64,000 nt of DNA from a bacterium (GCA_030648265.1 JAUSHX010000010.1:26253-90252), one strand, 5' to 3'. Counted from the stretch's first letter, positions 1 through 51,935 are shown. The notes: generated by a model not told the origin, from the sequence alone. Made by a program: numbers and translations.

Positions 1-103
1 AATTACAAGTTCTTTATCCCTTACCACTTTTGCCATCAGAAAGGCAAAAGTGGTAAGGGATATCAGATTTACTAAGCTCGCTACGCTCGTAACAAAAACT
101 AAC
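1..103 (+). promoter_or_regulatory. conserved leader module, copy 1 (partial at window edge), abutting the rplQ ATG
   Basis: AATTACAAGTTCTTTA + hairpin CCCTTACCACTTTTGCC/GGCAAAAGTGGTAAGGG + TTTACTAAGCTCGCTACGCTCGTAACAAAAACTAAC-ATG. Confidence 0.7.
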
Positions 104-472
104 ATGAAGCACCACAAGAAAACGCGTACACTCGGACGAAAGACGGGGCAGCGTACGGCATTACTGCGAAGTTTGGCCCGCTCTCTCCTCCTTTCCGAGG
201 GAATAACAACGACTATCGCACGCGCTAAAGAACTGCGCCCATTCGTGGAAAAGATTATTTCAGCGAGCAAGCAAAACACCGTCGCCTCACGCCGCGAGAT
301 TTCTTCACGGTTGGGCGGGGCGGCAGATGTGGTACTCAAGTTGCACGGCGACCTTGCGCCCATGTTTAAAAACCGTGTCGGCGGTTATACCCGCATCATC
401 AGACTGGGAAGAGTGGGGAAGCGCGCCATTGAATCCGCCCGTATAGAGTTAGTCTCCGCCGATGAAAAATAA
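104..472 (+). CDS. rplQ: 50S ribosomal protein L17
   Basis: N-terminus MKHHKKTRTLGRKTGQR...KELRPFVEKIIS is typical of L17. The ORF track starts at 50, but the ATG at 104 matches the L17 N-terminus and is preceded by the conserved leader module. Confidence 0.9.
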   Translation: MKHHKKTRTLGRKTGQRTALLRSLARSLLLSEGITTTIARAKELRPFVEKIISASKQNTVASRREISSRLGGAADVVLKLHGDLAPMFKNRVGGYTRIIRLGRVGKRAIESARIELVSADEK

Positions 473-488
473 TTGAAGAAATAATTGT

Positions 489-845
489 ATGGCTACAAAA
501 TCCGAATATACTATAGATGCAGCAGGGAAAAGCTTGGGGCGTATTGCCTCTCAAGCGGCAAAGACGCTCATGGGCAAGACCGAAGCAGGCTATACGCCTA
601 ATATCGCATCACAGGTGCAGGTAACTGTTATAAATGCGGCAAAATTAATTAACACCGATAAGAAAAAGCTCGGCAAGAAATACACTTCGTATTCAGGTTA
701 TCCGGGAGGTTTGAAGACGGAGGCTCTCGGCAAGCTGCAGATACGCAAGAGCCACGCAGAACCGCTGCGCCGCGCGATAGAAAGAATGCTCCCGCGCAAT
801 ACGCTTCGTGTCGGCAGAATGAAAAACCTAAGGATTGTCGTGTAG
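489..845 (+). CDS. rplM: 50S ribosomal protein L13
   Basis: 118 aa; GKSLGRIASQAAKTLMGK...YTP matches L13; adjacent to rpsI as in the conserved rplM-rpsI pair. Confidence 0.9.
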   Translation: MATKSEYTIDAAGKSLGRIASQAAKTLMGKTEAGYTPNIASQVQVTVINAAKLINTDKKKLGKKYTSYSGYPGGLKTEALGKLQIRKSHAEPLRRAIERMLPRNTLRVGRMKNLRIVV

Positions 846-849
846 AATT

Positions 850-1038
850 GGAGCGAAGCGAACAATTGTACACTTGAGAATCCTTATCCGACACCACTTT
901 TGAAACTTCAAAAAAATATGCAATACTATTACACTCAATCACTACCAGCATTTATTGGCAGGAACTGCCGGATATCAAAAGTGGTGTCGGATGTAAGAGC
1001 TTCTAAACTCATTATCATTCGTTAAGAATCTCTAACAT
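850..1038 (+). promoter_or_regulatory. conserved leader module, copy 2, abutting the rpsI ATG
   Basis: Hairpin CCGACACCACTTTTGA ... TCAAAAGTGGTGTCGG (roughly 78 nt loop) + GTAAGAGCTTCTAAACTCATTATCATTCGTTAAGAATCTCTAACAT-ATG. Confidence 0.75.
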
Positions 1039-1434
1039 ATGGCAACCAAAGAACGATACGTTGAAGCGGTGGGACGAAGAAAGACGGCAAGTGCCCGCGC
1101 CCGTCTTACGCCCGCAAAGAGTTCTTCAATGACGGTGAACGGCAAAACCGCGGCGGAATATTTCCCGCTTGAGGCGCTTGTAAAAACAGCTTTTGAATCT
1201 CTCACCACGACCGGCTCCACCTACGCGGTTTCCGTACACGTTTCCGGCGGCGGACACAAAGGACAGGCAGTTGCAGTGCGCCACGCGATTTCCCGCGCAC
1301 TCACCGAAATAACTCCGGAATTCCGTAAAGACTTGAAACAAAGAGGATTTTTGAAACGCGACCCGAGAAAGAAAGAGCGCAAAAAGTTCGGCCTCAAGAA
1401 AGCCCGCCGTGCCCCACAGTGGTCAAAACGATAG
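1039..1434 (+). CDS. rpsI: 30S ribosomal protein S9
   Basis: 131 aa; basic C-terminus KKARRAPQWSKR typical of S9; follows rplM. Confidence 0.9.
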   Translation: MATKERYVEAVGRRKTASARARLTPAKSSSMTVNGKTAAEYFPLEALVKTAFESLTTTGSTYAVSVHVSGGGHKGQAVAVRHAISRALTEITPEFRKDLKQRGFLKRDPRKKERKKFGLKKARRAPQWSKR

Positions 1435-1520
1435 TTTTTGTTTTGTATTTCCTGTTTCCGGATTTCCTGGCAGCTAGTCCCTAAAACCTAGAACCTATTT
1501 TTGTGTTATACTCCCCATCC

Positions 1521-2120
1521 ATGAGTTTGAGTAAGAAAGATGAGAAAAAATCGGATTTAACTAAAAATCCAGAAGCAACACAGGTAGAAATCAAAGAAGG
1601 TGATTTTGAATTGGAAGGCGAGGAAAATGGTTCAGCAACTCTGGCAAATAAACTCAAGAAATTGAGAGCCGAGCTGGAAAAGTGCAAAGAAGAGAAGCGG
1701 GAATATCTTGTGGGCTGGCAGAGATGCAAGGCCGATTCCATAAACGCCCGTAAGGAAGCTGCGAGCATAGCCGAGCGGGTAGGAAATCGCGCGCGCGATT
1801 TTCTTGTTGAGGACATTATTCCCGCGCTTGACAGTTTTGACATGGCAATAGCGAGCGACGCATGGGCACAGATGGACGCAAATTGGAGGACAGGAATGGA
1901 AAATGTCCGCGCGCAACTTATTACGGCACTTCTAAATCAAGGGGTGACCGCCTACGCGGAAATTGGAGATGCTTTTGACCCGACACTCCATGAGGCAGTG
2001 CAAGAAATTGATGCGGATGGGGAGTCGGGCAGTGTTGCAAGAATCTTGCGGCGCGGTTACAAATCTGCGGGCAACATAATTCGCCCCGCACAGGTTGCGA
2101 TTGTCGCTCATAAAGAATAG
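1521..2120 (+). CDS. grpE: nucleotide exchange factor GrpE
   Basis: Coiled-coil N-terminus followed by a GrpE C-terminal domain; sits upstream of dnaK. The ORF track begins at a GTG at 1503; the ATG at 1521 is the more likely start. Confidence 0.85.
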   Translation: MSLSKKDEKKSDLTKNPEATQVEIKEGDFELEGEENGSATLANKLKKLRAELEKCKEEKREYLVGWQRCKADSINARKEAASIAERVGNRARDFLVEDIIPALDSFDMAIASDAWAQMDANWRTGMENVRAQLITALLNQGVTAYAEIGDAFDPTLHEAVQEIDADGESGSVARILRRGYKSAGNIIRPAQVAIVAHKE

Positions 2121-2142
2121 AATGACTTTCTAGTTGACAAAA

Positions 2143-2276
2143 TAACTCAGAGAATTTATGTATTCAGAAATTGTTATGAGCAGAGCAAATTACAAGTTCT
2201 TAACCCAGCACCTTTCGCGAAAGGTGCTGGGTGTAAGAGCTTCTAAACTCATTATCATTCATTAAGAATCTCTAAC
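2143..2276 (+). promoter_or_regulatory. conserved leader module, copy 3, abutting the dnaK ATG
   Basis: GAAATTGTTATGAGCAGAGCAAATTACAAGTTCTTAACCC + hairpin AGCACCTTTCG-cg-AAAGGTGCT + GGGTGTAAGAGCTTCTAAACTCATTATCATTCATTAAGAATCTCTAAC-ATG. The 3' part is almost identical to copy 2. Confidence 0.8.
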
Positions 2277-4145
2277 ATGGGAAAAATAATTGGCATTGAC
2301 TTGGGAACGACGAACTCCGCAGTCGCAGTGGTGCGAAGCGGGGAACCGGAAATCATAGAGAACGCAGAGGGCGCGCGGACAACGCCGTCGGTAGTCGCAA
2401 TTTCAAAGACGGGAGAAAAGCTCGTAGGGCTTTTGGCGCGCAGACAGGGAGTTACCAACCCTAAAAATACGGTATACCAAATAAAGCGCTTTATCGGGCA
2501 TTCTTTTGACGAAAAAGCTGTTGAGAAAGACCGCGCAGCAGTGCCTTTTGAAATCCGGAAATCAGATAACGGGGGAATTGAAGTTCACATGGGCGAGAAA
2601 TGGTTCCGTCCCGAAGAAATCTCGGCGATGATTTTGCAGAAACTGAAACAGGATGCCGAGGCAAAGCTCGGTGAAACAATTACTGAAGCTGTCATTACCG
2701 TGCCCGCATACTTTAACGATGCTCAACGACAGGCTACGCGCGATGCGGGGAAAATCGCAGGACTGGACGTGAAGCGCATCATCAATGAGCCAACCGCGGC
2801 GGCGCTTGCTTACGGATTTAATAAGAAAAAGAATGAGAAAATCGTTGTATTTGATTTCGGCGGTGGAACCTTTGATATCTCTGTTCTGGAGGTTGGTGAT
2901 GACGTCATTGAGGTGCGTTCAACGGACGGCGACAGCCATCTAGGCGGAAAAGATATTGACCAGAAGATAATGACATGGATTGCGGATGAATTTAAAAAGG
3001 AATCCGGTATTGACGTGCGCAATGACCCTCTCGCGCGCCAGCGCCTTGATGAAGCGGCGGAAAAGGCAAAGATTGAGCTTTCCACGGCCAAAGAAACCGA
3101 GGTAAATATCCCTTTCATTACGTCCGACTCATCCGGTCCGCGCCACCTGCTCGTGAAAATGACACGGGCAAAATTGGAGGACCTTTCCGGTGAATTTATC
3201 CAGCAGGCGATGACAATCACGAATCGGGCAATGGACGCGTCTCCATTTAAGATAGGGGATTTGAATGAAGTGATTCTTGTGGGAGGACAAACGCGCATGC
3301 CGGCGCTCCAAAAAGCCGTTGAAGATTTCTTCCATAAGAAACCCAACATGACGGTAAATCCGGACGAAGTGGTCGCCATCGGTGCAGCCATCCAAGGTGG
3401 AATCCTTCAGGGAGACGTCAAAGATGTTCTCCTTCTGGACGTTATCCCTCTATCAATGGGAATAGAAACATTGGGAGGCGTCGCCACAAAGATAATAGAA
3501 CGCAATACGACAATCCCCACGTCACGTTCGCAGGTATTTTCCACTGCATCCGACAACCAACCATCTGTGGAAATTCACATTGTGCAGGGAGAAAGACCGA
3601 TGGCGGGAGACAACAAATCACTAGGAAGGTTTAACCTAGACGGAATACCTCCGGCTCCGCGCGGAATGCCCCAGGTTGAGGTCAAGTTTGATATAGATGC
3701 AAATGGTATTTTGAGCGTTACCGCAAAAGATAAGACTTCCGGAAAAGAGCAGTCAATCCGCATTGAAGCGCGCTCCGGCCTCACGGATGCCGAGGTTGAG
3801 AAAATGCGCAAAGATGCCGATGTTAACGCCGATGCCGACAAACAAAAACGCGAGCTCGTGGAGGCGCAAAATGCCGCGGACCAGATTCAGTACGCCGCGG
3901 AAAAAGCGCTTAAAGAACATGGTGAAAAGGTGAGCGAAGACATCCGAAAAAATGTAGAGGAGAAGATAGTGGCGCTTAAGACAGCGCGCGCGGGTACGGA
4001 CACTACTGCAATCAAAACCGCGTCCGATGCGCTCGGAACGGCCATGAGCGCGATTGGGGAGGCAATGTCAAAAAATCCCCCGCCACAGGAACCCCCACAG
4101 GGCGGAGAGCAGAAGCCGCCGGAAGAAACTCCGCCTCAAAAATAA
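2277..4145 (+). CDS. dnaK: molecular chaperone DnaK (Hsp70)
   Basis: 622 aa; [22 protein letters not shown] and the Hsp70 substrate-binding domain are all present. Confidence 0.97.
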
Positions 4146-4170
4146 AAAGTGTTCGGACAGCATATATGTG

Positions 4171-4262: not shown

Positions 4263-5342
4263 ATGAAGAATTACTACGATATACTTGGGATCACCAAGAC
4301 GGCAAGTGAGGAAGAAATAAAATCAGCATTCAGAAAACTCGCGCATAAATACCATCCCGATAAAAAAGGCGGGGATGAGAAGAAATTTAAAGAGGCGAGC
4401 GAGGCGTACGCGGTGCTTTCCGATAAGAAAAAGCGCGCGGAATACGATACGTATGGAAAAACATTCGCCGGTGGAGGCCAGCAGGCCGGCGGATTCGGAG
4501 GCGGATTCGATTTCTCTGATTTCGCGCAGGGGGGCGCGAACTTCGGCGATCAGGAGTTTGACCTCGGTGACATTTTCGGAGAATTTTTCGGAGGTAGTGC
4601 AAGAGGCACAGCGGGCAAAAGGCGAGGCCGCGACATTTCAGTAGACATTGAACTGCCGTTCCGCGAAGCGATATTCGGTACTGAACGCAGGATGCTAATC
4701 GCCAAAATGAGCGTGTGCGGAGCATGCGACGGCACGGGCGCCAAAAAGGGAACAAAGCGCACAACGTGCAGTTCGTGCAACGGCAAGGGTAACATTCGCG
4801 AAGCTCGAAATACGTTCTTTGGCAATTTCACAACGACGCGCACGTGCCCGCGCTGTTTAGGCCGCGGCGAGGTGCCGGAACACCAGTGCGACATCTGCAA
4901 GGGACAGGGCATCGCGAAGAGGGAAGAAGAAATCCATGTCATCGTTCCTGCCGGAGTATCAGACGGTGAAATGATACGCATGCCAGGGAAAGGCGAGGCC
5001 GCAGCAGGAGGAGTCGCCGGCGATCTCTATGTCAAACTGCATGTCAAGGCCGACAGGGCATTTACCCGCGAAGGAAACAATCTTTTGACGGTTCTTCATC
5101 TGAAGCTTACCGATGCGCTCTTGGGCGGTGAATTTAAGGTTGAGACGCTTGACGGCCCGCTCTCTGTCAGCGTCCCGCAGGGTGTCGCACACGGAGAACT
5201 TCTGCGTGTGCGTGAGCGCGGGGTCCCGCACGGCAGGGGCTCGCGCGGGGATTTATTGGTGCGGGTTGATATCCAATTTCCGAAGAAACTCTCGCGCACG
5301 GCGAGCGAACTTATTGCGCAACTGCGCAAGGAGGGGCTGTAA
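4263..5342 (+). CDS. dnaJ: molecular chaperone DnaJ
   Basis: J-domain (YYDILGI...HPDK), G/F-rich linker, and four CxxCxGxG zinc-finger repeats. The ORF track gives a TTG start at 4236; the ATG at 4263 has TATAAT 6 nt upstream. Confidence 0.95.
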
Positions 5343-5400
5343 GACTAGGGGCTAGGTTTTAGGGGATAGGGTATAGTAACACTTGAATCAAAATGGTTCA
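5343..5400 (+). repeat. intergenic repeat (family 2, degenerate) between dnaJ and the CvpA-like gene
   Basis: GACTAGGGGCTAGGTTTTAGGGGATAGGGTATAGTAAC. Confidence 0.5.
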
Positions 5401-5408
5401 TCACGAAC

Positions 5409-5894
5409 ATGGCTCCAATAAATGTTTTCTTCAGCCACATTCCAATAGATTGGATAATAATTGCTGTTTTTGCGATTATTGTTGCATTTGACGCAATGCG
5501 CTCCGGGTCTGGAAGAGCCACCTCTTTTGCGTTATCTCTACCGGCCACTCTTTTTATCGTCGCGGAACTTCCTCATGCAAAGTTCTTGTCTGGTGTCACT
5601 GAACAATTCACATCGTCCGTCCTTAAGGCTCTTCTTTTCGGGATTGTTTTTGTCGTCACATACATACTTGTGCGCAGAATGAGCGCTCCTGATGCAACCG
5701 ACAGCGGGCAAATCATACAGGCCATCGTGGCGGGTATTGCCGCAACTGCTGTCGCAATAGTAGTATGGTTGCAAGTTCCGGAGCTTCAATCAGTCTGGCA
5801 CTTCGGCGCGCAGATACAGGCGATTTTCGGCGAGGCATATCGCTTTTGGTGGATAGCCGGCTCATTCGCCGCACTTGCGTTTGTGAGAGATTAA
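5409..5894 (+). CDS. CvpA-family membrane protein (colicin V production protein-like)
   Basis: About 160 aa with four predicted TM segments; N-terminus IDWIIIAVFAIIVAFDAMRSG resembles the CvpA N-terminus. Confidence 0.5.
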   Translation: MAPINVFFSHIPIDWIIIAVFAIIVAFDAMRSGSGRATSFALSLPATLFIVAELPHAKFLSGVTEQFTSSVLKALLFGIVFVVTYILVRRMSAPDATDSGQIIQAIVAGIAATAVAIVVWLQVPELQSVWHFGAQIQAIFGEAYRFWWIAGSFAALAFVRD

Positions 5895-13894: not shown

Positions 13895-14962
13895 GTGAAA
13901 ATGATATCAGACCTCGTACGGGTTCTTGTTCCGGCTACTACAGCTTTCGTTATCGGAATTCTCGCGACACCAATCCTCACCCATTACCTGTACAAGTACA
14001 GGGCGTGGAAAAAAAGCCCCGGGAAAACCGCGCTTGACGGCACGCAAGCTTCAGAGTTCTACCGTCTGCATGAAGAGAACGAGGTACGGGCGCCGAGGAT
14101 GGGAGGTATTGTCGTGTGGGGAAGCGTTGTGCTTACCATCATAGGAATTGCTATCGTTGCGCGATTCGTACCAAGCGCAGAAATTCTTAAATTGGATTTC
14201 CTAAGCCGCAATCAGACATGGATACCGCTCGCGGCGCTCATCGTGGGGGCGCTTGCGGGACTGATGGACGACATGATGGTCATTCGCCCAGAGAGCAGGG
14301 GAATGCCGCTGCGTCTCCGGTTGTTTATCGTCGTTGTTCTTTCTGCTTACATCGGCTGGTGGTTCTGGTCCAAACTGGGTGTTACCGCCGTAAATATTCC
14401 TTTCGGAGCGCCTTTTGAGATCGGATGGCTCATCATTCCGCTGTTTGTACTGGTGTCGCTCGCAGTGTATGCATCCGGCGTGATAGACGGAATAGACGGC
14501 TTGTCCGGAGGAGTATTCGCTTCTGTCTTTGCCTCGTATTCTCTCATTGCATTCGCGCAGAATCAAATAGACCTTTCATCTTTCTGTGCATCAGTCGTCG
14601 GCGGACTGCTTGCGTTCTTATGGTTCAATATTCCGCCCGCGAGGTTTTATATGTCTGACACGGGAACTATGGGACTTACGCTTACTATAGCGGTAATAGC
14701 GTTCATGACAGACAACCTTGGGGGCGGAGTCGGGATTTTGGTTTTGCCCATCATCGGCGGATTGCTTGTTGCAACGGTCGCCTCTGATATAGCGCAGGTT
14801 GTCTCAAAAAAGTTTCTCGGTAAGAAGCTATTTCGCATAGCGCCGCTGCACCATCACTTTGAGGCGATTGGTTGGCCAGGATACAAGGTCGTCATGCGCT
14901 ACTGGATCCTATCGGTCGTGTTCGCTTTTGCAGGAGTAATTATTGCGTTGGTTTCAATTTAG
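13895..14962 (+). CDS. mraY: phospho-N-acetylmuramoyl-pentapeptide transferase
   Basis: Polytopic membrane protein with the MraY C-terminal signature APLHHHFE..GW...V. The likely ATG is at 13901 (the ORF track gives a GTG at 13895), with TACAAT 6 nt upstream. Confidence 0.9.
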   Translation: MKMISDLVRVLVPATTAFVIGILATPILTHYLYKYRAWKKSPGKTALDGTQASEFYRLHEENEVRAPRMGGIVVWGSVVLTIIGIAIVARFVPSAEILKLDFLSRNQTWIPLAALIVGALAGLMDDMMVIRPESRGMPLRLRLFIVVVLSAYIGWWFWSKLGVTAVNIPFGAPFEIGWLIIPLFVLVSLAVYASGVIDGIDGLSGGVFASVFASYSLIAFAQNQIDLSSFCASVVGGLLAFLWFNIPPARFYMSDTGTMGLTLTIAVIAFMTDNLGGGVGILVLPIIGGLLVATVASDIAQVVSKKFLGKKLFRIAPLHHHFEAIGWPGYKVVMRYWILSVVFAFAGVIIALVSI

Positions 14963-15094
14963 AAATTGTTATGAGCAACGCGAATTACAATTTCTTAACC
15001 CTGTTAAATCCCGCCGAAGGCGTGGCGGCAAAGCCGCATTTAACAGGGTGCAAGTTGCTTCTAAGCTCGTTAACACTCGCCAAGAAGAACTAAC
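14963..15094 (+). promoter_or_regulatory. conserved leader module, copy 4, abutting the ftsW ATG
   Basis: GAAATTGTTATGAGCAACGCGAATTACAATTTCTTAACCC + hairpin TGTTAAAT...ATTTAACA + GGGTGCAAGTTGCTTCTAAGCTCG...CAAGAAGAACTAAC-ATG. It starts at the mraY stop codon. Confidence 0.75.
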
Positions 15095-20218: not shown

Positions 20219-20227
20219 GCAGAGTTG

Positions 20228-21441: not shown

Positions 21442-21444
21442 AAA

Positions 21445-22128: not shown

Positions 22129-22164
22129 AAGTACATTACGATTTACGATGATATACTGTTTTTA

Positions 22165-23121: not shown

Positions 23122-23124
23122 AGT

Positions 23125-23156
23125 TAACTGAGTATAATAACTCTAATACTCAGTTA
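23125..23156. promoter_or_regulatory. dif-like palindrome adjacent to the xer start (candidate recombination site or operator)
   Basis: TAACTGAGTAT-aataactcta-ATACTCAGTTA: 11 bp inverted arms with a 10 bp spacer, 4 nt upstream of the xer ATG. Confidence 0.4.
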
Positions 23157-23969: not shown

Positions 23970-24150
23970 GTTAGAGATTCTTAGTGAGCGGTAGCGAGCT
24001 TAGAAGCTCTTACATCCCTCCCCAATTTAGTATCCGTTCTCATGTGTTAATTTTGCGATTTCGCTGAGACCGTCTCAACAGTATATCAAATTTGAGAGGC
24101 GATTGTGTGATACCAAATTGGGGAGGGATTAGAAAAATATAGTCGCTTCG
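23970..24150 (-). promoter_or_regulatory. conserved leader module, copy 6 (minus strand), abutting the exonuclease gene ATG
   Basis: Minus-strand reading: hairpin ATCCCTCCCCAATTT ... AAATTGGGGAGGGAT (roughly 75 nt loop) + GTAAGAGCTTCTAAGCTCGCTACCGCTCACTAAGAATCTCTAAC-ATG. Confidence 0.75.
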
Positions 24151-24154
24151 CTTC

Positions 24155-24574
24155 TTATTTTCCTAATCCTTTGCAATTTTTGGCGGGAGAATATCCTGCA
24201 GAACGAGCATTCGCCTCGCTCGTAAACCACACCTGATTTTGCGGAGCGATTTTAGCGGCTGAAGCGCACCATGGGAAATAGTATGCACTACCCGTTCGGG
24301 ATGCCACTATGAGGCCTCCTATACTCATTCCCCGCGGTTCTGCGACGGTAGGCGCATTTGTGATTGATACAGTGGCACGAACACTCTCCAATACAGACAA
24401 ACGCCCTAGTCCGAACGAGCCCAAAGCGACCAATAGCACAATAAGAAGCAGTCCCCACTCTCCTATCGCAACATCCGCCCAATTCTTGATTTTATTAGTA
24501 AAATCACGAAGCATAGCGTAGTAGATTTTACTATACCCTGTTAAATCCCGTTCTGCATCCTGCAGACGGGACAA
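24155..24574 (-). CDS. membrane-anchored protein with Ada-like Cys zinc-binding-type C-terminal domain
   Basis: One TM segment; the C-terminus YYFPWCASAAKIAPQNQVWFTSEANARSAGYSPAKNC resembles the Ada N-terminal metal-binding motif (F.RPSC...NV.F..S..EA..AGFRPCKRC). The start may be at the internal Met (24514). Confidence 0.4.
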   Translation of the reverse strand: MSRLQDAERDLTGYSKIYYAMLRDFTNKIKNWADVAIGEWGLLLIVLLVALGSFGLGRLSVLESVRATVSITNAPTVAEPRGMSIGGLIVASRTGSAYYFPWCASAAKIAPQNQVWFTSEANARSAGYSPAKNCKGLGK

Positions 24575-24721
24575 CTTGAATTATATCGGCGCATAATGTA
24601 TATTACTGGGAACTTGAGTAGGGATGCTGATACGGCTATCACATTTCATAGCATTTCAAGTTGTATTTAACAGGGTGTAAGTTGTTTCTAAACTCGCTTA
24701 CGCTCATTAAGAAAAACTAAC
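24530..24721 (+). promoter_or_regulatory. conserved leader module, copy 5, abutting the rpmA ATG
   Basis: ACCCTGTTAAAT (24536) ... roughly 125 nt loop ... ATTTAACAGGG (24683) + TGTAAGTTGTTTCTAAACTCGCTTACGCTCATTAAGAAAAACTAAC-ATG. Confidence 0.7.
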
Positions 24722-33800: not shown

Positions 33801-34436
33801 TCATAGTGTTTTGGCGATTGACCCTATCAATAAAATGCCGATGCAGTTGAATGTAAAGGAGAGAGGAATAAACCAGGACATTTTCATTTTTGAGAAGCCC
33901 AAAAGGCTGATTCCCAACTCGTCGGGAAGTGGAGAGGCGATAATTAAACCGCCGACAACGAATGTAAACCATCTGAAGAACCGTAGGTGGAGGAGTGTGC
34001 TTACTCTTCTCCCCGCTCTCCGGTGCCCGACGAGCTCCATCAGGTGCTCTGAAAACCTGTCCCGGATAAACCGGAAAATTATCAAGTCTCCGAGTACAGC
34101 CCCCATTGCTCCGAAAATGGCCGTCAGAAACACCGAGTTGGCCTGGGCAATCTCGCCTAGAGCGACTATTGCCGGAGCAGTTGTAAAAACTGAAGTGAAA
34201 AACATCCCTGCGATAAAGCTTCCCAGTAACTCCCGTTCATGGGTAGCGGTTAGTATATTTACTAAGACTTCTGTTTTTACCAAAATTACAGCGATAAGAA
34301 CGCTGAATGCGATGATAGATATATCCCGTAGAAAGAAATTGTTCTTGCGTTTCCTTGTTTTCATTTGAGTACAATGACCCGAGTACATGTATTTTGTATC
34401 TCGTATTTTGTATTTAGTATGAATACAAGATACCAA
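33801..34436 (-). CDS. hypothetical integral membrane protein
   Basis: Multiple hydrophobic helices. The real start is probably an internal Met (MKTRKRK...). Confidence 0.4.
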   Translation of the reverse strand: MVSCIHTKYKIRDTKYMYSGHCTQMKTRKRKNNFFLRDISIIAFSVLIAVILVKTEVLVNILTATHERELLGSFIAGMFFTSVFTTAPAIVALGEIAQANSVFLTAIFGAMGAVLGDLIIFRFIRDRFSEHLMELVGHRRAGRRVSTLLHLRFFRWFTFVVGGLIIASPLPDELGISLLGFSKMKMSWFIPLSFTFNCIGILLIGSIAKTL

Positions 34437-34446
34437 ATACCATATA

Positions 34447-44985: not shown

Positions 44986-45231
44986 CTACAAAAGTACGAC
45001 GGCGCGATTGCCGGAGAATTCCAGAATTCCATTTTCTGTTTTAAACGTTTTCACTTCGTCATCCGGAAGCTTGACGGTGATTGAGCCCGTGCGAAGCGCT
45101 GTCACAAACGGCTCGTGATTGGCTAATACCGTGAGCTCGCCATCAGAACCGGGAAGAGTTGCGGAAACCGCCTTGCCGTCAAAATACGTCTCTCCGACGC
45201 TTGAAATTACAAGATGAAAAGTTTTTGACAT
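44986..45231 (-). CDS. atpC: ATP synthase F1 epsilon subunit (N-terminal beta-sandwich only)
   Basis: 81 aa; MSKTFHLVISSVGETYFDGKA...LTVLANHEPFVTAL matches the epsilon N-domain; lies downstream of atpD. Confidence 0.8.
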   Translation of the reverse strand: MSKTFHLVISSVGETYFDGKAVSATLPGSDGELTVLANHEPFVTALRTGSITVKLPDDEVKTFKTENGILEFSGNRAVVLL

Positions 45232-45283
45232 AGGGTTTAGGGTTTAGGGTTTAGGGTTTAGTGAATTCCCTATACCCTAACCA
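45232..45283 (-). repeat. intergenic repeat (family 2) upstream of atpC, including a (CCCTAAA)4 tandem repeat on the minus strand
   Basis: Plus strand AGGGTTT x4, then AGTGAATTCCCTATACCCTAACCACTAGTGGCTAAC. It contains the 10 bp palindrome CCACTAGTGG. Confidence 0.7.
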
Positions 45284-46729
<1,446 letters not shown>

Positions 46730-49053: not shown

Positions 49054-49148
49054 AAAAATAGCTAGTGGCTTGTAGCTTGCAGCTTGTAGCCACTCAAAAA
49101 CAATTCTCTTTTAACAACGATGTGCGTGGTATTTCGCATGGCTACAGG
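49054..49148 (-). repeat. intergenic repeat (family 2 variant) between atpA and atpG
   Basis: CTAGTGGCTTGTAGCTTGCAGCTTGTAGCCACTC ... GGCTACAGGCTACTTGCTACTGGCTACGGGC: GCTAC/GTAGC-rich, with CCACTAGCTATTTTT-ATG immediately before atpG (minus-strand reading). Confidence 0.5.
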
Positions 49149-50735
49149 CTACTTGCTACTGGCTACGGGCTGGGAGCCAAATAGCTCCCCGTGTGCCAGC
49201 CGGAACTCCTCAAGCGCGCGGTCCAGTTTCTTTTTCAGAGCTTCGGACATGACGCCAGACTTCCTTATTTCAGCAAGCTCTTTTGCATATTGACCATCTA
49301 CGAATTCAAGCAAAAGCGCCTCAACTTCGCTGACGCGCGTAATCGCGACGTCCGCAAAAAATTTCTTATCAGCAGCGTATAAAACGGCAACCTGCTTTTC
49401 AACAGAAATCGGCGAGCCGTTTCTCTGCTTCAGAATTTCAACCATTCTTCTGCCCGATTCAATTCTATCGGCAGTCATCTTGTCCAAGTCCTGCGCGAAT
49501 TGCATAAATGCTTCTAATTCTCGGAATTGCGCGAGAACCAGGCGCAAAGTGCCAGCCACTGACTTCATCGCTTTGGTCTGCGCGGCTGAACCCACGCGGG
49601 AAACGGAAATACCGACATCAATCGCAGGACGTACTCCTTTGTTGAACAGAGATGAGTCTAAGAATATCTGGCCGTCCGTAATTGAAATAACGTTAGTCGG
49701 AATGTATGTAGCAACATCGCCATCCTGTGTTTCAATAATAGGCAATGCGGTAAGGGAACCGCCGCCTTTTTCTTCGCTTAAACAAGCCGAGCGTTCAAGC
49801 AAGCGGGAGTGTAAATAGAAAATGTCGCCTGGATACGCCTCGCGTCCCGGCGGACGGCGCAAGAGCAAGGAAAGTTGGCGATACGCTGTCGCCTGTTTGG
49901 AAAGGTCGTCGTAAATCACGAGTACGTCTTGCCCGCGGTCCATGAAATATTCGCCCATGGCCACTCCCGCATACGGCGCCAAGAATTGCAGAGCCGCCGG
50001 CGTAGATGCCGGAGCGTCAACGATTATCGTATACGGCATCGCCCCCGCTTCCGTGAGCTGTTGAGCGATGCGCGCAGTTTTTGATTCCTTCTGACCGATA
50101 GCAACATAAATACAAATCGGCCGTTTCTCTGCCGGCTCGTTCTTCTGGTTGATTATCGTATCAATCGCAATCGTCGTCTTTCCCGTGGAGCGGTCGCCGA
50201 TGATGAGCTCGCGCTGTCCGCGCCCGATCGGAATCATGGAATCAATCGCTTTGATACCGGTCTGGAGCGGGACGGACACTGATTTTCTGTCTATGACTCC
50301 GTATGATTCCCGTTCAACGGGCATCATGGTCGCTTTTGTGAAAGGCCCTTTGCCGTCCAGCGGCTCGCCCAAGGCACTCACAACCCTGCCCAAAAGTTCG
50401 TCGCCGGAGGGAACTGAAAGAATCCTGCCGGTTGATTTGACTGTCATTCCTTCGTTCACTCGCGCGGAGTCGCCCAAAATCGTCGCCCGCACGCCATCCT
50501 CCTCCAAGTTGAGAACGAGACCGTGGAGAGCGCCGGCCGCTTCCATTCCCTTGGAAAGCGGCCTCCCCGCGGTTTCTTCAAACTGGATGATTTCACCCAT
50601 GACCGCGCGGGAAAGTCCGTCAATCGCAACAACACCGTCGCCGACAGACGTCACGCGCCCGACATGCTCCACACCCGCTTTCGGCGTATAGTGTTCAATT
50701 TCGTTTATTATCTTTTGTACGATTGATTGGTCCAT
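49149..50735 (-). CDS. atpA: ATP synthase F1 alpha subunit
   Basis: P-loop [13 protein letters not shown]. Preceded by the leader module. Confidence 0.97.
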
Positions 50736-50903
50736 ATTAGATTTTGTTACGAGCGAAACGAGTTAGAAAATCTTATACCCAGCACCTTTTAATTTTAAAA
50801 CGGCGTGTGGTGACTGAGTATACAGCATAAGTTAATTTTGATGAAAAAGATGGAGTTTACAGTGAAAGGTGCTGGGTCAAGAAAAACATAGTCACGGTGT
50901 TCC
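50736..50903 (-). promoter_or_regulatory. conserved leader module, copy 7 (minus strand), abutting the atpA ATG; starts at the atpH stop
   Basis: Minus-strand reading: CTTGACCC + hairpin AGCACCTTT ... AAAGGTGCT (roughly 70 nt loop) + GGGTATAAGATTTTCTAACTCGTTTCGCTCGTAACAAAATCTAAT-ATG. Confidence 0.75.
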
Positions 50904-51293
50904 TTATTTTTCTAAGACTCTTTCATATATATCCAGCAATTGTCTCTTGTAGCTCGCATCATGGAGAAGTTCACGGCCTTCCAGCCGCCAGCCGCCTATC
51001 AGATTCTCATCAATGTTTATTTTCACATCGTCCGTTTTGATTGTGGAATCCTTTAGCAGTTCTCTTGCCTCTTTGAGCGCGCGCTTTCCGTCGGCATAGC
51101 GCGCGACTTTCAGCACCACGACATTCTTTGCTTCCGCGCGAGCGGCAAGAAGCGAAAACGCCCGCGCAATTTTAGGCAGAAGACCGAGACGCCCGCGCGC
51201 GCCCAGCGCCTGACACAGCGTCTTCACTGCACCCCTGGGATTTGCCCCGTCTTCAATAATTCTCCACAGTGCTTGTGCATAGGCCTTGTCCAT
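50904..51293 (-). CDS. atpH: ATP synthase F1 delta subunit (OSCP)
   Basis: 129 aa (short form); its operon position between atpF and atpA and its helical character fit delta. Confidence 0.7.
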   Translation of the reverse strand: MDKAYAQALWRIIEDGANPRGAVKTLCQALGARGRLGLLPKIARAFSLLAARAEAKNVVVLKVARYADGKRALKEARELLKDSTIKTDDVKINIDENLIGGWRLEGRELLHDASYKRQLLDIYERVLEK

Positions 51294-51367
51294 AATAATA
51301 GGTGGTAGGTTTTAGGGTATAGGGTTTAGTGAATTCTTAAAGGCATTTCTTTGCTAGTGGCTATACC
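51294..51367 (-). repeat. intergenic repeat (family 2) between atpF and atpH
   Basis: GGTTTTAGGGTATAGGGTTTAGTGAATTC...GCTAGTGGCTATACCCTAGTGGCTAG. The 27 nt CTAGCCACTAGGGTATAGCCACTAGCA (minus-strand reading) is identical to 12233-12260. Confidence 0.7.
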
Positions 51368-51817
51368 CTAGTGGCTAGTTCCTTTCAATATTTTCTCCGC
51401 CGCAAGCATTGCAGCTCTCGTAATCTCTTTCTCGCTTTGCTTTATTGCCAGCCGTTTCGCTTCCTCCGCGCGCGCTGCCGCATCAGCGAGAACCCCCTGC
51501 GCCTGCGATTCCGCGGATTTTACGATTTCAGCGCCTTTCTCTTCGGCACGAGCTCGCGCAGTCTTTACAAGCGCCTCCGCCTCCCGCGAGGCGTCTCCCA
51601 TAATTCCGTCTCCCTTCTTTTGCGCTTCCGCAAGACTGCGCGCCGCCCTCTCCGCCGTCTTCACGCCTTCCGCGATTTTCTCCCGCCGTTCGTCTATCAT
51701 TTTCAGAACCGGCTTGTATAGGAAGTAGCTCAATATCGCCAAAAGGAGCGCAAAGTTAATCCCCTGCGCAAGCAGAAGCTTCCAATTGACGCCGAAGACT
51801 GAAAGAAGGGGTTCCAT
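51368..51817 (-). CDS. atpF: ATP synthase Fo b subunit
   Basis: N-terminal TM helix followed by a long charged coiled coil (AEAQKKGDGIMGDASREAEALVKTARARAEEKG). The ATG at 51817 is directly preceded by the leader module; the ORF track over-extends to 51982. Confidence 0.8.
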   Translation of the reverse strand: MEPLLSVFGVNWKLLLAQGINFALLLAILSYFLYKPVLKMIDERREKIAEGVKTAERAARSLAEAQKKGDGIMGDASREAEALVKTARARAEEKGAEIVKSAESQAQGVLADAAARAEEAKRLAIKQSEKEITRAAMLAAEKILKGTSH

Positions 51818-51935
51818 CTTAGAATTTCTTATTGAGTGCGCGAGTTTAGAAATTCTTAGACCTAGCACCTTTGTTTCATAAAGAAACGAAGGTGCTGGGT
51901 TAAGTACAACTAATTCGCTACGCTCATAAGTCCTA
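51818..51935 (-). promoter_or_regulatory. conserved leader module, copy 8 (minus strand), abutting the atpF ATG; starts at the atpE stop
   Basis: Minus-strand reading: TATGAGCGTAGCGAATTAGTTGTACTTAACCC + hairpin AGCACCTTCGTTTC...GAAACAAAGGTGCT + AGGTCTAAGAATTTCTAAACTCGCGCACTCAATAAGAAATTCTAAG-ATG. Confidence 0.75.

What the first reader, a model, noticed from the sequence alone, without database searches (positions are those of the whole stretch)
1..51935. Recurrent, oriented leader module with a covarying hairpin, abutting the ATG of at least eight highly expressed genes
Eight copies of one module sit immediately upstream of rplQ, rpsI, dnaK, ftsW, rpmA, the DEDDh exonuclease, atpA and atpF, in the coding sense of each gene. 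Coordinates are 1-103, 850-1038, 2143-2276, 14963-15094, 24530-24721, 23970-24150(-), 50736-50903(-) and 51818-51935(-). Each module begins at or within a few nucleotides of the upstream gene's stop and ends exactly at the ATG. Its architecture has three parts. The 5' box is ~TTATGAGCAnnGCnAATTACAAGTTCTTAACCC. The middle is a hairpin whose stem sequence differs between copies but stays complementary (CCCAGCACCTTT/AAAGGTGCTGGG; CCGACACCACTTTTGA/TCAAAAGTGGTGTCGG; CCCTGTTAAAT/ATTTAACAGGG; ATCCCTCCCCAATTT/AAATTGGGGAGGGAT), with a loop of 4 to about 125 nt. The 3' box is ~GGGTGTAAGAGCTTCTAAACTCG-N10-CGTTAAGAATCTCTAAC-ATG. The two boxes are themselves partly complementary (TTCTTAAC versus GTTAAGAA; CTTAACCC versus GGGTGTAAGAG), so each copy can form a long imperfect hairpin with a variable apex. 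Compensatory stem variation next to conserved flanks points to selection on structure (RNA or DNA) rather than recent duplication. Two copies sit inside the atp operon, which argues against a simple operon-start promoter. Candidate roles are a standardised strong promoter with a (near-)leaderless start (TTCTAA..16 nt..TAAGAAT..7 nt..ATG), an RNase III-type intercistronic processing or stability element, or a translation-initiation enhancer in an organism without SD sequences. I cannot match it to a named element family.
Basis: seen in the sequence. Interest (0 to 1): 0.85.

Follow-up and report, generated by a model that had tools for sequence, protein, structure and literature searches.

The report
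Repeated stop-to-start hairpin leader module
A three-hairpin repeat of 105-200 bases fills the whole gap from one gene's stop codon to the next gene's ATG, in front of about one gene in eight here and in some 40 related Kaiserbacteria-type species. It behaves like a mobile, transcribed leader cassette, often with its own promoter, in an organism that lacks Shine-Dalgarno sites, and no catalogue I searched holds it.

Summary
All eight copies sit where stated, in the sense of rplQ, rpsI, dnaK, ftsW, rpmA, a DEDDh exonuclease, atpA and atpF, and a covariance-model scan finds exactly eight in the window.

Each module is H1, then H2, then H3, then ATG.
- H1 and H3 are inverted copies of one 43-45 nt hairpin unit.
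- H2 is a variable hairpin. In about 60% of copies it holds a 59-88 nt insert, often with a gene-ward sigma70-like promoter.
- H3 covaries strongly, and its last base pair is nucleotide -1 of the ATG.

About 120 further copies occur in roughly 40 Kaiserbacteria/Paceibacteria species; 101 of 127 are followed directly by ATG. They sit in front of more than 100 gene families, with ribosomal proteins the most frequent. Presence at orthologous gene starts is patchy, so the module moves or turns over.

In relatives that use Shine-Dalgarno sites, the same leader lies between a canonical promoter and GGAGG. The host genome has no Shine-Dalgarno sites and is rich in leaderless-type promoters.

Best reading: a REPIN/Correia-like repeat used as a transcribed stop-to-start leader that presents the start codon, possibly by cleavage at the foot of H3. 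The promoter reading of the 3' box is disfavoured. The mechanism is untested.

The parts
1..103 (+). Module upstream of rplQ, cut at its 5' end by the window edge. Remnant of H1 at 1-15, H2 at 16-61 (8-nt loop), H3 at 62-103, ATG at 104.
   Evidence: 47 bits; L17
846..1038 (+). Module upstream of rpsI. Degenerate H1 at about 846-885 (apex GAGCGAAGCGA); the rplM stop TAG is at 843-845. H2 at 886-992 with a conserved type of insert seen in several species. H3 at 993-1036, then AT, then ATG at 1039.
900..929 (+). Promoter-like site inside the H2 loop of the rpsI module (TTGAAA-18-TACTAT). The same insert, with the same hexamers, occurs in front of other genes in other species.
2134..2161 (+). Promoter-like site (TTGACA, then TATGTA) just 5' of the dnaK module. 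It would start transcription at about the first base of the module. The orthologous TTGACA-17-TATATA precedes a different leader in L041.
   Evidence: Not listed by the consensus scan, because the second hexamer lacks the final T.
2166..2276 (+). Module upstream of dnaK, short form. H1 at 2166-2202 (class I), H2 at 2203-2232 (stem CCCAGCACCTTT, 4-nt loop), H3 at 2233-2276, ATG at 2277.
   Evidence: (H3 76 bits; H1 31.5 bits on the reverse strand)
14958..15094 (+). Module upstream of ftsW. H1 at 14958-14997 contains the mraY stop TAG at 14960-14962. H2 at 14998-15049, H3 at 15050-15094, ATG at 15095.
   Evidence: (65 bits; H1 37 bits on the reverse strand)
24497..24721 (+). Module upstream of rpmA at a divergent junction. 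H1-like hairpin at 24497-24532, with the start codon of the opposite-strand gene (CAT at 24512-24514) in its apex. H2 at 24535-24676 with a 120-nt insert, H3 at 24677-24721, ATG at 24722.
24576..24604 (+). Promoter-like site in the H2 insert of the rpmA module (TTGAAT-17-TATATT).
23970..24166 (-). Module upstream of the DEDDh exonuclease gene. H1 at 24166-24130 (class II); the upstream ORF stops at TAA 24157-24155, inside H1. H2 at 24129-24014, H3 at 24013-23970, ATG at 23969.
24050..24078 (-). Promoter-like site in the H2 insert of the exonuclease module (TTGAGA-17-CAAAAT). The first hexamer lies in the palindrome TTGAGACGGTCTCA, which recurs in the inserts of L018 and L012.
50736..50915 (-). 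Module upstream of atpA, inside the atp operon. H1 at about 50915-50878 (class II); the atpH stop TAA is at 50906-50904, inside H1. H2 at 50877-50777 with a 73-nt insert. H3 at 50776-50736, a short variant ending CTAAT. ATG at 50735.
   Evidence: 61 bits
50817..50824 (-). TGTATACT (an extended -10-like motif) in the H2 insert of the atpA module.
   Evidence: Read. Not flagged by the two-hexamer scan.
51818..51938 (-). Module upstream of atpF, inside the atp operon. H1 at 51938-51901 starts at the atpE stop TAG. H2 at 51900-51860. H3 at 51859-51818, whose foot pair is flipped to C-G (CTAAG...CTAAG). ATG at 51817.
   Evidence: 60 bits; H1 30 bits on the reverse strand

Best explanation
The module is a lineage-specific, multi-copy intergenic repeat of Kaiserbacteria-type Patescibacteria.

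**Build.** It is H1, H2, H3. H1 and H3 are inverted copies of one 43-45 nt hairpin unit. That unit has a foot GTTAG/CTAAC, a 6-bp variable helix with a central mismatch, a TTA/TAA step with an A.A (or T.T) mismatch, tandem G.A pairs, and a GNA or GNRA apex. H2 is a G+C-rich variable hairpin whose loop is either short or holds a 59-88 nt insert.

**Behaviour.** It spreads or recombines among gene starts like a REPIN or a Correia-type miniature element. It is kept only in one orientation and one register: the stop codon of the upstream gene lies in the 5' strand of H1, and the last pair of H3 is the base before the ATG.

**Proposed mechanism.** It works as RNA. It is transcribed with the downstream gene in one of three ways: by read-through from the upstream gene, from a promoter just 5' of it (dnaK), or from a promoter carried in the H2 insert. 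H1 and H2, which are strong hairpins in the mRNA sense, close off the upstream message. H3, which is deliberately weak in the mRNA sense, marks where the translated message begins.

In an organism without Shine-Dalgarno sites, whose ordinary promoters make leaderless mRNAs, the most likely way this works is endonucleolytic cleavage at the foot of H3, giving a 5'-terminal AUG. The second possibility is direct ribosome loading at the junction between the helix and the single strand.

**Shown:** existence, anatomy, covariation, orientation, the fixed junction, patchy distribution, and the leaderless/SD-less context. Also shown is its position between a canonical promoter-like site and the ribosome-binding site in SD-using relatives.

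**Inferred:** transcription from the insert promoters, mobility, and the start-site role. Cleavage is inferred only from geometry.
For: 1. **Repeat family.** There are eight copies in the window and no ninth. A pattern without ATG found 99 loci in about 40 species-level genomes, nearly all Kaiserbacteria/Parcubacteria/Paceibacteria. ATG follows directly in 101 of 127 copies and within 3 nt in 17 more.
2. **H3 is a real helix ending at -1.** On 114 distinct sequences 88.7% of cells are paired, against 79.6% when shuffled and 21-43% when slid. Eleven of 16 pairs show double changes, and 0 of 500 shuffles reach the observed covariation. Foot pair 13-57 is GC 102, AU 3, CG 3. A diverged variant in L070 has a different foot sequence (GGC...GCC) but still pairs up to the base before the ATG.
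3. **H1 is the inverted copy of the unit.** It gives reverse-strand covariance-model hits. It covaries in its own stem, and its apex is GC-GNA-GC with compensatory AC/GT and AT/AT variants.
4. **Transcribed in the sense of the gene.** In the SD-using relatives L061 and L101-L105, 7 of 10 copies lie downstream of TTGACA-16..18-TAnnnN. All are followed at 0-1 nt by an SD-like GGAG(G)/AGGAG and then the ATG. The dnaK copy sits behind a TTGACA promoter that is conserved in L041, where the leader is different. H2 inserts carry sense-oriented sigma70-like sites: 11 of 42 at 9/12 or better, against 4 of 42 antisense and 9% in shuffles. The inserts also share conserved sequence types across species and genes.
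5. **Context.** 20 of 55 non-module genes have a TAnnnT ending 6-8 nt before the ATG (9 with TGn), and only 8 of 55 have an SD-like motif.
6. **Turnover.** At orthologous starts 118 sites are filled and 171 are unfilled, and 98 of the unfilled gaps are 40 nt or less. For example rplO is filled in 6 of 18 sites and rplF in 2 of 15. One filled/empty pair between close relatives shows the module replacing a 5-nt spacer with no duplication (L070 against L008). The same insert type precedes L15, L6, S7, S9, FtsZ and SecY.
7. **No relaxed spacing.** No copy sits 30-50 nt upstream of a start, as a neutral insertion upstream of a leaderless promoter would.
8. **Gene set.** Ribosomal-protein families (S5, L24, L15, S7, S4) are the most frequent; RpoA/RpoC, FtsZ, SecY and NusA also recur.
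Against: - No transcript data exist, so neither transcription from the insert promoters nor any cleavage is shown.
- H3 folds better on the antisense strand (111 of 114; mean -9.8 against -6.8 kcal/mol). In the sense strand its intermediate states are A.C (58) rather than G.U (12). Its conserved mismatches are tandem U.C in the sense strand but would be tandem G.A in the antisense strand. This is the opposite of what plain selection on a sense-strand RNA hairpin predicts, and it fits a DNA-level (single-strand hairpin) constraint.
- No nuclease and no transposase candidate was identified.
- Most copies with inserts still follow a co-directional gene (50 of 57), so an internal promoter is not obviously needed.
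- Several insert 'promoters' score only 8/12.
- The loci were found through the 3' box, so its apparent higher conservation relative to the 5' box is partly an ascertainment effect.
- Diverged variants escape my models (L070), so the count of unfilled sites is inflated for the 45 sites with gaps over 100 nt.
Confidence: 0.45

Rival explanations
1. It is a purely selfish DNA repeat: a REPIN or MITE-like nested palindrome, mobilised as single-stranded hairpin DNA by an unidentified enzyme, with no host function. The exact junction would come from insertion specificity (next to ATG/CAT). The fixed orientation would come from purifying selection, because only the orientation that puts the weak mRNA hairpin next to the start codon and the strong one after the stop codon is tolerated.
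For: - It is an inverted pair of one hairpin unit.
- The apex is of the GCGAAGC/GCGNAGC type, which from my own knowledge (not checked in the library) forms unusually stable DNA mini-hairpins.
- H3 and H2 pair better on the bottom strand: G.T against A.C is 12:58 in H3 and 11:30 in H2.
- Orthologous distribution is patchy and a filled/empty pair exists.
- The same stem and insert types recur in several species.
- Upstream ORFs end at variable points inside H1, as expected after an insertion.
- Orthologous rplO modules have identical H1 but H2 arms of different types, which suggests arm swapping.
Against: - There is no target-site duplication and no leftover spacer on either side.
- No copy sits at other intergenic positions, for example upstream of leaderless promoters or after convergent genes.
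- It is frequent at ribosomal-protein, RNAP and ATP-synthase gene starts in very small genomes, where junk should be purged.
- SD-using relatives keep H2-H3 as a 5' UTR without the inverted partner.
- No insert is of gene size, and no transposase was seen in 700 kb of loci.
Confidence: 0.25
2. It is a translational-coupling bridge. In read-through transcripts the 5' box pairs with the 3' box, which puts the upstream stop codon and the downstream AUG at the foot of one long hairpin. The terminating ribosome melts the foot, exposes the AUG and re-initiates. This would keep expression stoichiometric across a 100-200 nt insertion in an organism that depends on termination-reinitiation.
For: - Stop codons lie in the 5' strand of H1 in 38 of 51 copies, with peaks at the foot.
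- The 5' and 3' boxes are 77% complementary.
- The extended fold is the predicted minimum-energy structure for the dnaK and atpF copies.
- 71 of 83 modules follow a co-directional ORF.
- Other junctions in the window are overlaps or short spacers.
Against: - It cannot apply to dnaK (own promoter, stop about 45 nt upstream), to rpmA (divergent junction), or to the SD-type leaders, which have no H1.
- Class II 5' boxes pair poorly with the 3' box.
- Transcripts from an insert promoter would lack the 5' box.
- Complementarity between the two boxes shows no wobble signature in either direction (G.T 130 against A.C 147).
Confidence: 0.1
3. It is a shared leader that tags a regulon. H3, with its invariant CUC/CUC internal loop and two A.A mismatches one helical turn apart, would be the binding site of one protein or RNA that co-regulates growth-related genes after transcription. 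The closest analogy in logic is the eukaryotic 5'-TOP leader.
For: - Unpaired nucleotides in H3 are invariant: A.A at columns 15/55 and 26/45, U.C/C.U at 30-31/40-41, each in at least 109 of 114 sequences.
- The gene set is rich in ribosomal proteins, RNAP, FtsZ, SecY, NusA, ATP synthase and DnaK.
- The element is conserved as a 5' UTR across lineages with and without Shine-Dalgarno sites.
Against: - Which genes carry it differs from species to species. A regulon would be more stable.
- Many metabolic and unknown genes carry it.
- It does not by itself require the exact junction with the ATG.
Confidence: 0.1
4. The 3' box is itself a promoter (TTCTAA, 13-16 nt, TAAGAAT, 7 nt, ATG) that starts a leaderless mRNA at the A of the ATG.
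For: - AAGAAT ends 7 nt before the ATG in type 1 copies. That is the same spacing as the 20 genes in this genome with TAnnnT 6-8 nt before the ATG.
- The base after CTAAC is a purine in almost every copy (A of ATG, or G or A before the SD motif).
Against: - Type 2 copies (TAAGAAAAACTAAC, about 40%) have no T at the last position of any hexamer ending 6-9 nt before the ATG.
- Spacing between the two hexamers varies from 13 to 16 nt because of hairpin-preserving indels.
- The variable triplets covary as base pairs.
- There is no TGn, unlike the genome's own leaderless promoters.
- The SD-type relatives and dnaK have canonical promoters upstream of the whole leader.
Confidence: 0.05
5. It is a terminator-plus-promoter insulator. 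H1 and H2 would terminate the upstream transcript, and the insert promoter would restart transcription.
For: - Strong G+C-rich hairpins lie right after the stop codon.
- Promoter-like inserts face the downstream gene.
Against: - No T-run follows H1 or H2, and the terminator scan finds none at any module.
- Short-form modules inside the atp and dcw operons have no promoter, so they would cut the operon off.
Confidence: 0.05

Closest known systems
REP / BIME / REPIN elements of Proteobacteria (and their RAYT transposases)
   Same: Short hairpin units in many copies per genome. They are often arranged as inverted pairs that can fold into a larger hairpin, lie between unidirectional genes, are transcribed as part of mRNAs, are shared within a lineage, and vary in position between relatives (PMC3733652, PMC3116915; here).
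   Different: REP units are 20-40 bp, carry an unpaired GTAG or CGTC tag, and lie mainly downstream of coding regions (PMC3733652). Here the unit is 43-45 nt and its GTTAG end is paired. The pair encloses a third hairpin with cargo. The whole is strictly oriented and locked to the start codon. No RAYT was found, but none was looked for genome-wide.
Correia repeat-enclosed elements (CREE / nemis) of Neisseria
   Same: Miniature elements with inverted-repeat ends around a core, in discrete length classes. They are often 5' of genes, supply promoters, are co-transcribed so that the inverted repeats form an mRNA hairpin cut or bound by RNase III, and show presence/absence differences between relatives (PMC2649163).
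   Different: CREE duplicate a target sequence, insert at many distances from start codons and in both orientations, can disrupt genes, and make promoters at their ends with flanking DNA. Here no duplication is seen, the register with the ATG is fixed, the promoter-like sites are in the core, and each arm is itself a covarying hairpin.
Intercistronic RNase III processing hairpins of phage T7 early mRNA, and rRNA operon processing stems (from my own knowledge; not checked in the library)
   Same: Irregular hairpins with internal loops between cistrons of one transcript. After a single cut, the hairpin protects the 3' end of the upstream message.
   Different: Those sites leave a normal 5' UTR with a Shine-Dalgarno site and are not a mobile repeat family. 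Cleavage is not shown here.
tRNA punctuation of mitochondrial polycistronic transcripts (from my own knowledge; not checked in the library)
   Same: Structured RNAs fill the gaps between reading frames exactly. Their excision yields mRNAs that begin at or next to the start codon, in a translation system that reads leaderless mRNAs.
   Different: The structures here are not tRNAs (ARAGORN finds none), the host is a bacterium, and excision is only a hypothesis.
Integron attC sites
   Same: Imperfect palindromes with conserved outer boxes and a variable centre. The bottom strand folds better, and GTTAAGA resembles the GTTRRRY core.
   Different: The genes are housekeeping genes in conserved operon order (rplM-rpsI, grpE-dnaK, mraY-ftsW, atpEFHA), not cassettes. 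The TTCTTAAC and GTTAAGAA boxes are not in attC geometry, being separated asymmetrically by about 35 nt. The element is 5' of its gene, not 3'.

Membership tests
REP/BIME/REPIN | Imperfect palindromic unit of 20-40 bp | tested here: not met
   The unit is a 43-45 nt hairpin with 16 pairs and four conserved mismatches. The size range is from PMC3733652.
REP/BIME/REPIN | Unpaired GTAG or CGTC tag at one end of the unit | tested here: not met
   The ends are GTTAG/CTAAC (GUAAG/CUAAC in the sense strand of H3) and they are base-paired; pair 13-57 covaries.
REP/BIME/REPIN | Units in inverted pairs able to form a larger hairpin | tested here: met
   Reverse-strand covariance-model hits lie 60-250 nt upstream of the strong hits. 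The two arms are 77% complementary.
REP/BIME/REPIN | Located mainly downstream of ORFs, between convergent or unidirectional genes, in either orientation | tested here: not met
   Among matches at E of 1e-6 or better, all those in Patescibacteria-type loci and not cut by a locus end are in the sense of the next gene. 118 of 127 abut its ATG within 3 nt, one lies 9 nt from an ATG, and two abut GGAGG. None lies between convergent genes in the window.
REP/BIME/REPIN | Cognate RAYT (Y1 HUH) transposase in the genome | not tested
   Only 8-kb loci around matches were held, and no genome-wide protein search was made. No gene-sized insert was seen between arms.
Correia/CREE-type MITE | Terminal inverted repeats enclosing a core, in discrete length classes | tested here: met
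   H2 loop distances cluster at 3-8, 15-30, 51-53 and 59-88 nt. The arms are inverted copies of each other.
Correia/CREE-type MITE | Target-site duplication flanking the element | tested here: not met
   In filled against empty sites (rplO; rpsK L070 against L008) the module replaces the spacer between stop and ATG, and no direct repeat is visible.
Correia/CREE-type MITE | Presence/absence differences between related genomes | tested here: met
   118 filled sites against 98 clearly empty orthologous starts, and one filled/empty pair at 84-93% flank identity.
Correia/CREE-type MITE | The hairpin formed by the inverted repeats in mRNA is cleaved or bound by RNase III | not testable with these tools
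   Needs RNA-end mapping or an in vitro assay.
sigma70 promoter (3' box) | -35 and -10 hexamers 17 +/- 1 nt apart, with A at position 2 and T at position 6 of the -10 | tested here: not met
   Spacing is 13-16 nt. Type 2 copies lack the T. The consensus scan does not pair TTCTAA with TAAGAAT at any module; its only calls in 3' boxes are different weak 9/12 sites at dnaK and rpmA.
Intrinsic terminator | G+C-rich hairpin followed by a T-run | tested here: not met
   No terminator-like site is found at any module.
Integron attC | R''/L''...L'/R' boxes with a GTTRRRY core, 3' of promoterless cassettes, near an integrase | tested here: not met
   GTTAAGA has A at the Y position. The box geometry is asymmetric. 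The genes are core genes in conserved operon order.
Any Rfam family (ribosomal-protein leaders, riboswitches, ribozymes, sRNAs) | Score at or above the family's gathering threshold | tested here: not met
   There are 0 matches in the window at gathering thresholds. At permissive E-values only miRNA-precursor-like hairpin hits appear, far below threshold.
tRNA-like punctuation element | tRNA or tRNA-like fold | tested here: not met
   ARAGORN finds no tRNA or tmRNA in the window.

The most novel reading that the evidence does not exclude
Hairpin punctuation in a bacterium. The module would be an RNA punctuation mark that is cut at the foot of its 3' hairpin, by a host nuclease or by itself. Internal cistrons of polycistronic transcripts, and transcripts from the module's own promoter, would then be released as mRNAs that begin with AUG. 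That is the only form this SD-less, leaderless-type translation system reads efficiently. It would be a bacterial counterpart of mitochondrial tRNA punctuation, carried by a mobile element.
Probability: 0.2. Interest if true: 0.9.

Novelty: new variant of a known kind. Interest (0 to 1): 0.7.

Why it matters
Candidate-phyla-radiation bacteria have tiny genomes and almost no experimentally described gene-expression signals. Here about 13% of the genes in a 64-kb window, and comparable sets in some 40 related species, start behind one standard 105-200 nt structured cassette. That includes genes in the middle of the ribosomal-protein and ATP-synthase operons.

If the cassette is functional, it shows how an organism without Shine-Dalgarno sites, whose ordinary promoters make leaderless mRNAs, expresses internal cistrons. 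It would also be a natural portable expression unit (promoter plus leader) for a group of organisms with few or no genetic tools.

If it is selfish, it is a clear case of a palindromic repeat whose orientation and register are dictated to the nucleotide by translation.

It also has two practical consequences. These repeats break short-read assemblies of such genomes (a Logan contig ends inside two modules). The module can also be used to fix start-codon calls.

Tried and rejected
1. **Rfam.** Nothing at gathering thresholds and only miRNA-like hairpin noise at permissive thresholds. No tRNA or tmRNA.
2. **Upstream ORF in the 5' box (ATGAGC...).** The frame and stop are not conserved (5 codons in the atpF copy, 29 in dnaK), and class II boxes have no ATG. 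Rejected on reading.
3. **attC reading.** Rejected on geometry and on gene content.
4. **Mutation bias as the cause of the A.C excess in H3.** The sense strand is G-rich on both arms of the window and the skew switches sign at about 20 kb. The usual bias would therefore give G.T, not A.C.
5. **Autonomous element.** I looked for arms enclosing a gene. The largest insert is 256 nt.
6. **Transcript-like contigs.** A look-up of the S9 protein returned only one 1.2-kb Logan contig, whose ends fall inside the rpsI and dnaK modules. This is an assembly break, not an RNA end.
7. **16S rRNA 3' end in the fetched loci,** to inspect the anti-SD sequence. None is present.
8. **Literature searches** on Patescibacteria with Shine-Dalgarno, Parcubacteria with intergenic palindromes, and leaderless with CPR. 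Nothing found on this element.
9. **Short-loop copies are operonic and insert-bearing copies stand at operon starts?** No: 19 of 24 and 50 of 57 respectively follow a co-directional ORF.
10. **Metagenome scan for the SD-abutting form.** Only five loci were found, so the sample is too small for a separate covariation test.

Full report
**1.

Reading the eight stated places shows the same three-part element each time.
- A profile of the last 58 bases finds exactly eight hits in the window (E 3e-13 to 7e-18). Its next hits are the reverse strands of the atpF and ftsW 5' boxes.
- A covariance model run without filters finds the same eight (47-76 bits) and no ninth.
- The 19-base core is expected 0.01 times by chance.
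- The downstream genes are L17, S9, DnaK, FtsW/RodA family, L27, a DEDD exonuclease, AtpA and AtpF.
- Seven copies end at the ATG. The rpsI copy has two extra bases.

Corrections to the coordinates and to the description of the 5' box are listed under the observation check.

**2. Anatomy**

The module is three hairpins in a row, followed by the ATG.

*H3 (the 3' box)* is a 43-45 nt hairpin.
- On 114 distinct sequences (alignment A1), a structure of 16 pairs is 88.7% paired. Shuffled columns give 79.6% and slid partners give 21-43%.
- Eleven pairs show changes on both sides, in 170 cells, and no shuffle out of 500 reaches the observed covariation score.
- Examples are pair 19-52 (AU 62, UA 42, GC 2), pair 28-43 (AU 58, GC 41) and pair 33-38 (UA 51, CG 33).
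- The foot pair 13-57 is GC 102, AU 3, CG 3. The helix therefore closes on the base just before the ATG.
- Four non-canonical positions are almost invariant. Two are A.A mismatches eleven columns apart, each inside a YUAAR/YUAAR step. The other two form a tandem U.C/C.U.

*H1 (the 5' box)* is the same unit in the opposite orientation.
- The H3 model hits the reverse strand of the ftsW, dnaK and atpF 5' boxes at 30-37 bits. In the other genomes its weak reverse-strand hits lie 60-250 nt upstream of the strong ones.
- H1 has its own covarying stem. Its apex is two pairs around a GNA loop, flanked by tandem G.A (GAGCGAAGCGA), with compensatory AC/GT and AT/AT variants.
- It comes in two sequence classes.

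*H2* lies between them and is G+C-rich.
- Arms of 13 nt with at most one mismatch were found in 94 of 119 copies, giving 70 distinct arm pairs. Because that filter was applied, the arm-pair counts do not by themselves measure pairing.
- Many stems belong to recurring types, such as CCCAGCACC, CCCTGTTAAAT, CCCGCCYAAATTT, TCCCTCCCCAATT and CCCGCCACACGG, seen in several species.
- The distance between the arms clusters at 3-8, 15-30, 51-53 and, in about 60% of copies, 59-88 nt.

*The 5' and 3' boxes* are 77% complementary, so a fully extended hairpin is an alternative fold. The 5' strand of H3 is shared between the two folds.

**3. The long loops carry cargo**
- The 59-88 nt inserts share conserved sequence types across species and across different genes.
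- Several types hold good sigma70-like sites that point toward the gene: TTGAAA-16/18-nACTAT, TTGAGAC(C/G)GTCTCA...TACAAT, and TTTACA-17-TATGAT.
- At a threshold of 9/12 matches, 11 of 42 inserts score on the sense strand, 4 of 42 on the antisense strand, and 9% in shuffles.
- In the window the consensus scan flags the rpsI, rpmA and exonuclease inserts. The atpA insert has TGTATACT.
- This is suggestive but not proof.

**4. Distribution**
- A pattern of 21 specified bases, without ATG, found 99 stretches in one-genome-per-species bacterial and archaeal genomes. All but a handful are from Kaiserbacteria, Parcubacteria or Paceibacteria MAGs, about 40 species in all.
- Of 127 profile hits (loci plus window), 101 are followed directly by ATG and 17 more within 3 nt.
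- Every one of the 113 downstream ORFs of at least 40 codons is either complete or cut off only by the end of the fetched stretch.
- The ORFs span 107 Pfam families. The most frequent are S5 (6), L24 (5), L15 (4), and S7, S4, FtsZ, PilB and FolD (3 each). SecY, RpoA, RpoC, NusA, L6, S11, S13 and S14 also recur.

**5. The module is not fixed at particular genes**
- Among orthologues of module-bearing genes in the fetched loci, 118 starts have a module and 171 do not. For example rplO is filled in 6 of 18 sites, rplF in 2 of 15, secY in 2 of 15 and rpsH in 1 of 13.
- Of the 171 unfilled sites, 98 have a gap of 40 nt or less and so cannot hold a module. Another 45 have gaps over 100 nt and may hold other leaders or diverged modules.
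- Empty rplO sites read TAAtctATG and similar. The N-termini are the same length with and without the module, so the ATG is the gene's own start codon.
- Two close relatives give a filled/empty pair at the rpsM-rpsK junction. L008 has ...AAAACATAG-TAGGT-ATG. L070 has a 170-nt module of a diverged subtype in place of the spacer, with no duplication. Its last pair again abuts the ATG, and the 3' strand of its H1 is complementary to the last codons of rpsM.
- At dnaK, three species have three different arrangements behind what looks like the same TTGACA promoter: the module, a hairpin of heptamer repeats, or a 30-nt spacer.

**6. Both ends are in register with translation signals**
- The upstream ORF ends inside the 5' strand of H1 in 38 of 51 scorable copies. 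The peak is at the TAG or TAA that forms the foot of H1.
- 71 of 83 modules directly follow a co-directional ORF.
- In the window the modules fill co-directional gaps of 118-193 nt completely, while 19 other junctions are overlaps or gaps of 18 nt or less.

**7. Host context**
- Only 8 of 55 non-module genes have an SD-like motif.
- 20 of 55 have a TAnnnT ending 6-8 nt before the ATG, against about one per position elsewhere. Nine of these have TGn.
- This is the signature of leaderless transcription.

**8. Relatives that use Shine-Dalgarno sites**
- In one Paceibacterota genome and four metagenome contigs, the same H2-H3 leader is followed at 0-1 nt by an SD-like GGAG(G)/AGGAG and then the ATG.
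- In 7 of 10 copies it lies downstream of TTGACA-16..18-TAnnnN. The predicted transcript starts with AGTTCTT(T/C)AAAA, which is the inner half of the Kaiserbacteria 5' box.
- There is no inverted partner. Some leaders repeat the hairpin-plus-half-box unit in tandem.
- There, the element lies where a transcribed 5' UTR would be, by position. Its 3' edge again coincides with the first translation signal.

**9. What argues against a simple sense-RNA hairpin**
- H3 folds better as the antisense strand in 111 of 114 copies (mean -9.8 against -6.8 kcal/mol), and in 8 of 10 SD-type copies.
- In the sense strand its intermediate pair states are A.C (58) rather than G.U (12).
- Its tandem U.C would be tandem G.A on the other strand, and its apical loops would be GNA or GNRA there.
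- H2 shows the same bias (11 against 30). H1 shows none (18 against 17).
- Composition skew cannot explain this.
- Two readings remain. Either the hairpin unit matters as single-stranded DNA for spread, and only the orientation that gives a weak mRNA hairpin beside the start codon survives. Or H3 must be metastable in the mRNA.

**10. Weighing the mechanisms**
- *Promoter in the 3' box:* disfavoured. The spacing is variable and changes in a hairpin-preserving way, about 40% of copies lack the -7 T, the relevant triplets covary, and canonical promoters lie upstream of the whole leader.
- *Terminator:* no T-runs.
- *Coupling by unmasking:* fits the operonic copies but not dnaK, rpmA or the SD-type leaders.
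- *Selfish REPIN-like element:* explains the build, the turnover and the strand asymmetry. It does not explain why copies are absent from every other intergenic position, why both junctions are clean, or why the module is so frequent at the most highly expressed genes of very small genomes.
- *Preferred reading:* a mobile repeat kept as a transcribed stop-to-start leader whose 3' hairpin defines where the translated message begins.
- In a leaderless-type organism the simplest way to make use of an exact hairpin-AUG junction is a cut at the foot of H3. I give that specific step about 0.2-0.3, and the general reading about 0.45.

**11. Comparison with known elements**

The closest known elements are REP/BIME/REPIN and Correia elements. 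The module fails their defining tags, target duplication and placement rules (see the membership table). It is absent from Rfam, and the paper searches run here found no description of it.

I file it as a new variant of a known kind, namely palindromic intergenic repeats co-opted in mRNA leaders. It has one unusual property that nothing I found in Rfam or the paper library describes: nucleotide-exact stop-to-start placement.

Noticed in passing
window, upstream of 20 genes (e.g. 4263, 9155, 16298, 26412-, 35803, 42637-, 54727-, 58927/60003-): The genome looks leaderless-rich and SD-less. A TAnnnT hexamer, often with TGn, ends 6-8 nt before the ATG in 20 of 55 non-module genes, and an SD-like motif occurs in only 8 of 55.
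   Followed up: partly
window 45231-45261, 51306-51329, 34388-34447, 49059-49090, 49139-49171, 23324-23352; also L038 and L041 leaders: Short tandem heptamer repeats fill other intergenic leaders, for example upstream of atpH, atpG and the gene starting at 34388(-). Units include TAGGGTT (i.e. CCCTAAA), TGTATTT, TAGCTTG and TGGCTAC. In L041 the dnaK leader is a hairpin made of TACGAAT and ATTTGTAG repeats. This is a second, unrelated kind of intercistronic leader.
   Followed up: partly
window about 20000-24500: GC skew changes sign at about 20 kb (the cumulative skew is maximal there), and gene orientation converges on this point. This looks like a replication terminus.
   Followed up: no
L055 1887-1926 (next to tRNA-Asn at 1812-1886); L010 6724-6762 (about 90 nt from tRNA-Gly); L003 2256-2296; L095 1080-1118: Hairpins of the same unit type (TTTTCTAA.CTCG...CTCG.TAAGAAAA) occur outside Patescibacteria, in two Alphaproteobacteria MAGs, a 'Rhizobiaceae' MAG contig and a rumen bacterium. 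In L055 the hairpin abuts the CCA end of tRNA-Asn. The meaning is unknown. They could point to a wider hairpin family or to mis-binned contigs.
   Followed up: partly
window 24065-24078 (-); L018, L012, L079 inserts: The -35-like hexamer of one insert type lies in a perfect palindrome, TTGAGAC(C/G)GTCTCAA, that is conserved between species. It may be an operator for a dimeric regulator.
   Followed up: no
L100 (Logan SRR13727527 contig of 1218 nt, equal to window 1009-2226): The only public contig that carries this exact S9 protein begins inside the rpsI module and ends inside the dnaK module. The repeats fragment short-read assemblies of these genomes.
   Followed up: yes
L102 1750-1950, L104 780-980: In the SD-using relatives the leader can contain two tandem copies of 'G+C-rich hairpin plus GTAAGAGCTTCTAA.CTCACAAAG' before the single closing strand and GGAGG.
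   Followed up: no
L049 about 5250-5430 against L074 about 3020-3200 (orthologous rplO modules): H1 and the insert are nearly identical, but the H2 arms belong to different stem types (CCCTCTCC/GGGGAGGG against CCAGCACC/GGTGCTGG). The arms seem to be exchanged as a pair rather than to drift by single compensatory steps.
   Followed up: no
window 24497-24532: The H1-like hairpin of the rpmA module overlaps the start of the divergent gene 24155-24514(-). That gene's start codon (CAT on the + strand, 24512-24514) lies in the hairpin apex.
   Followed up: no
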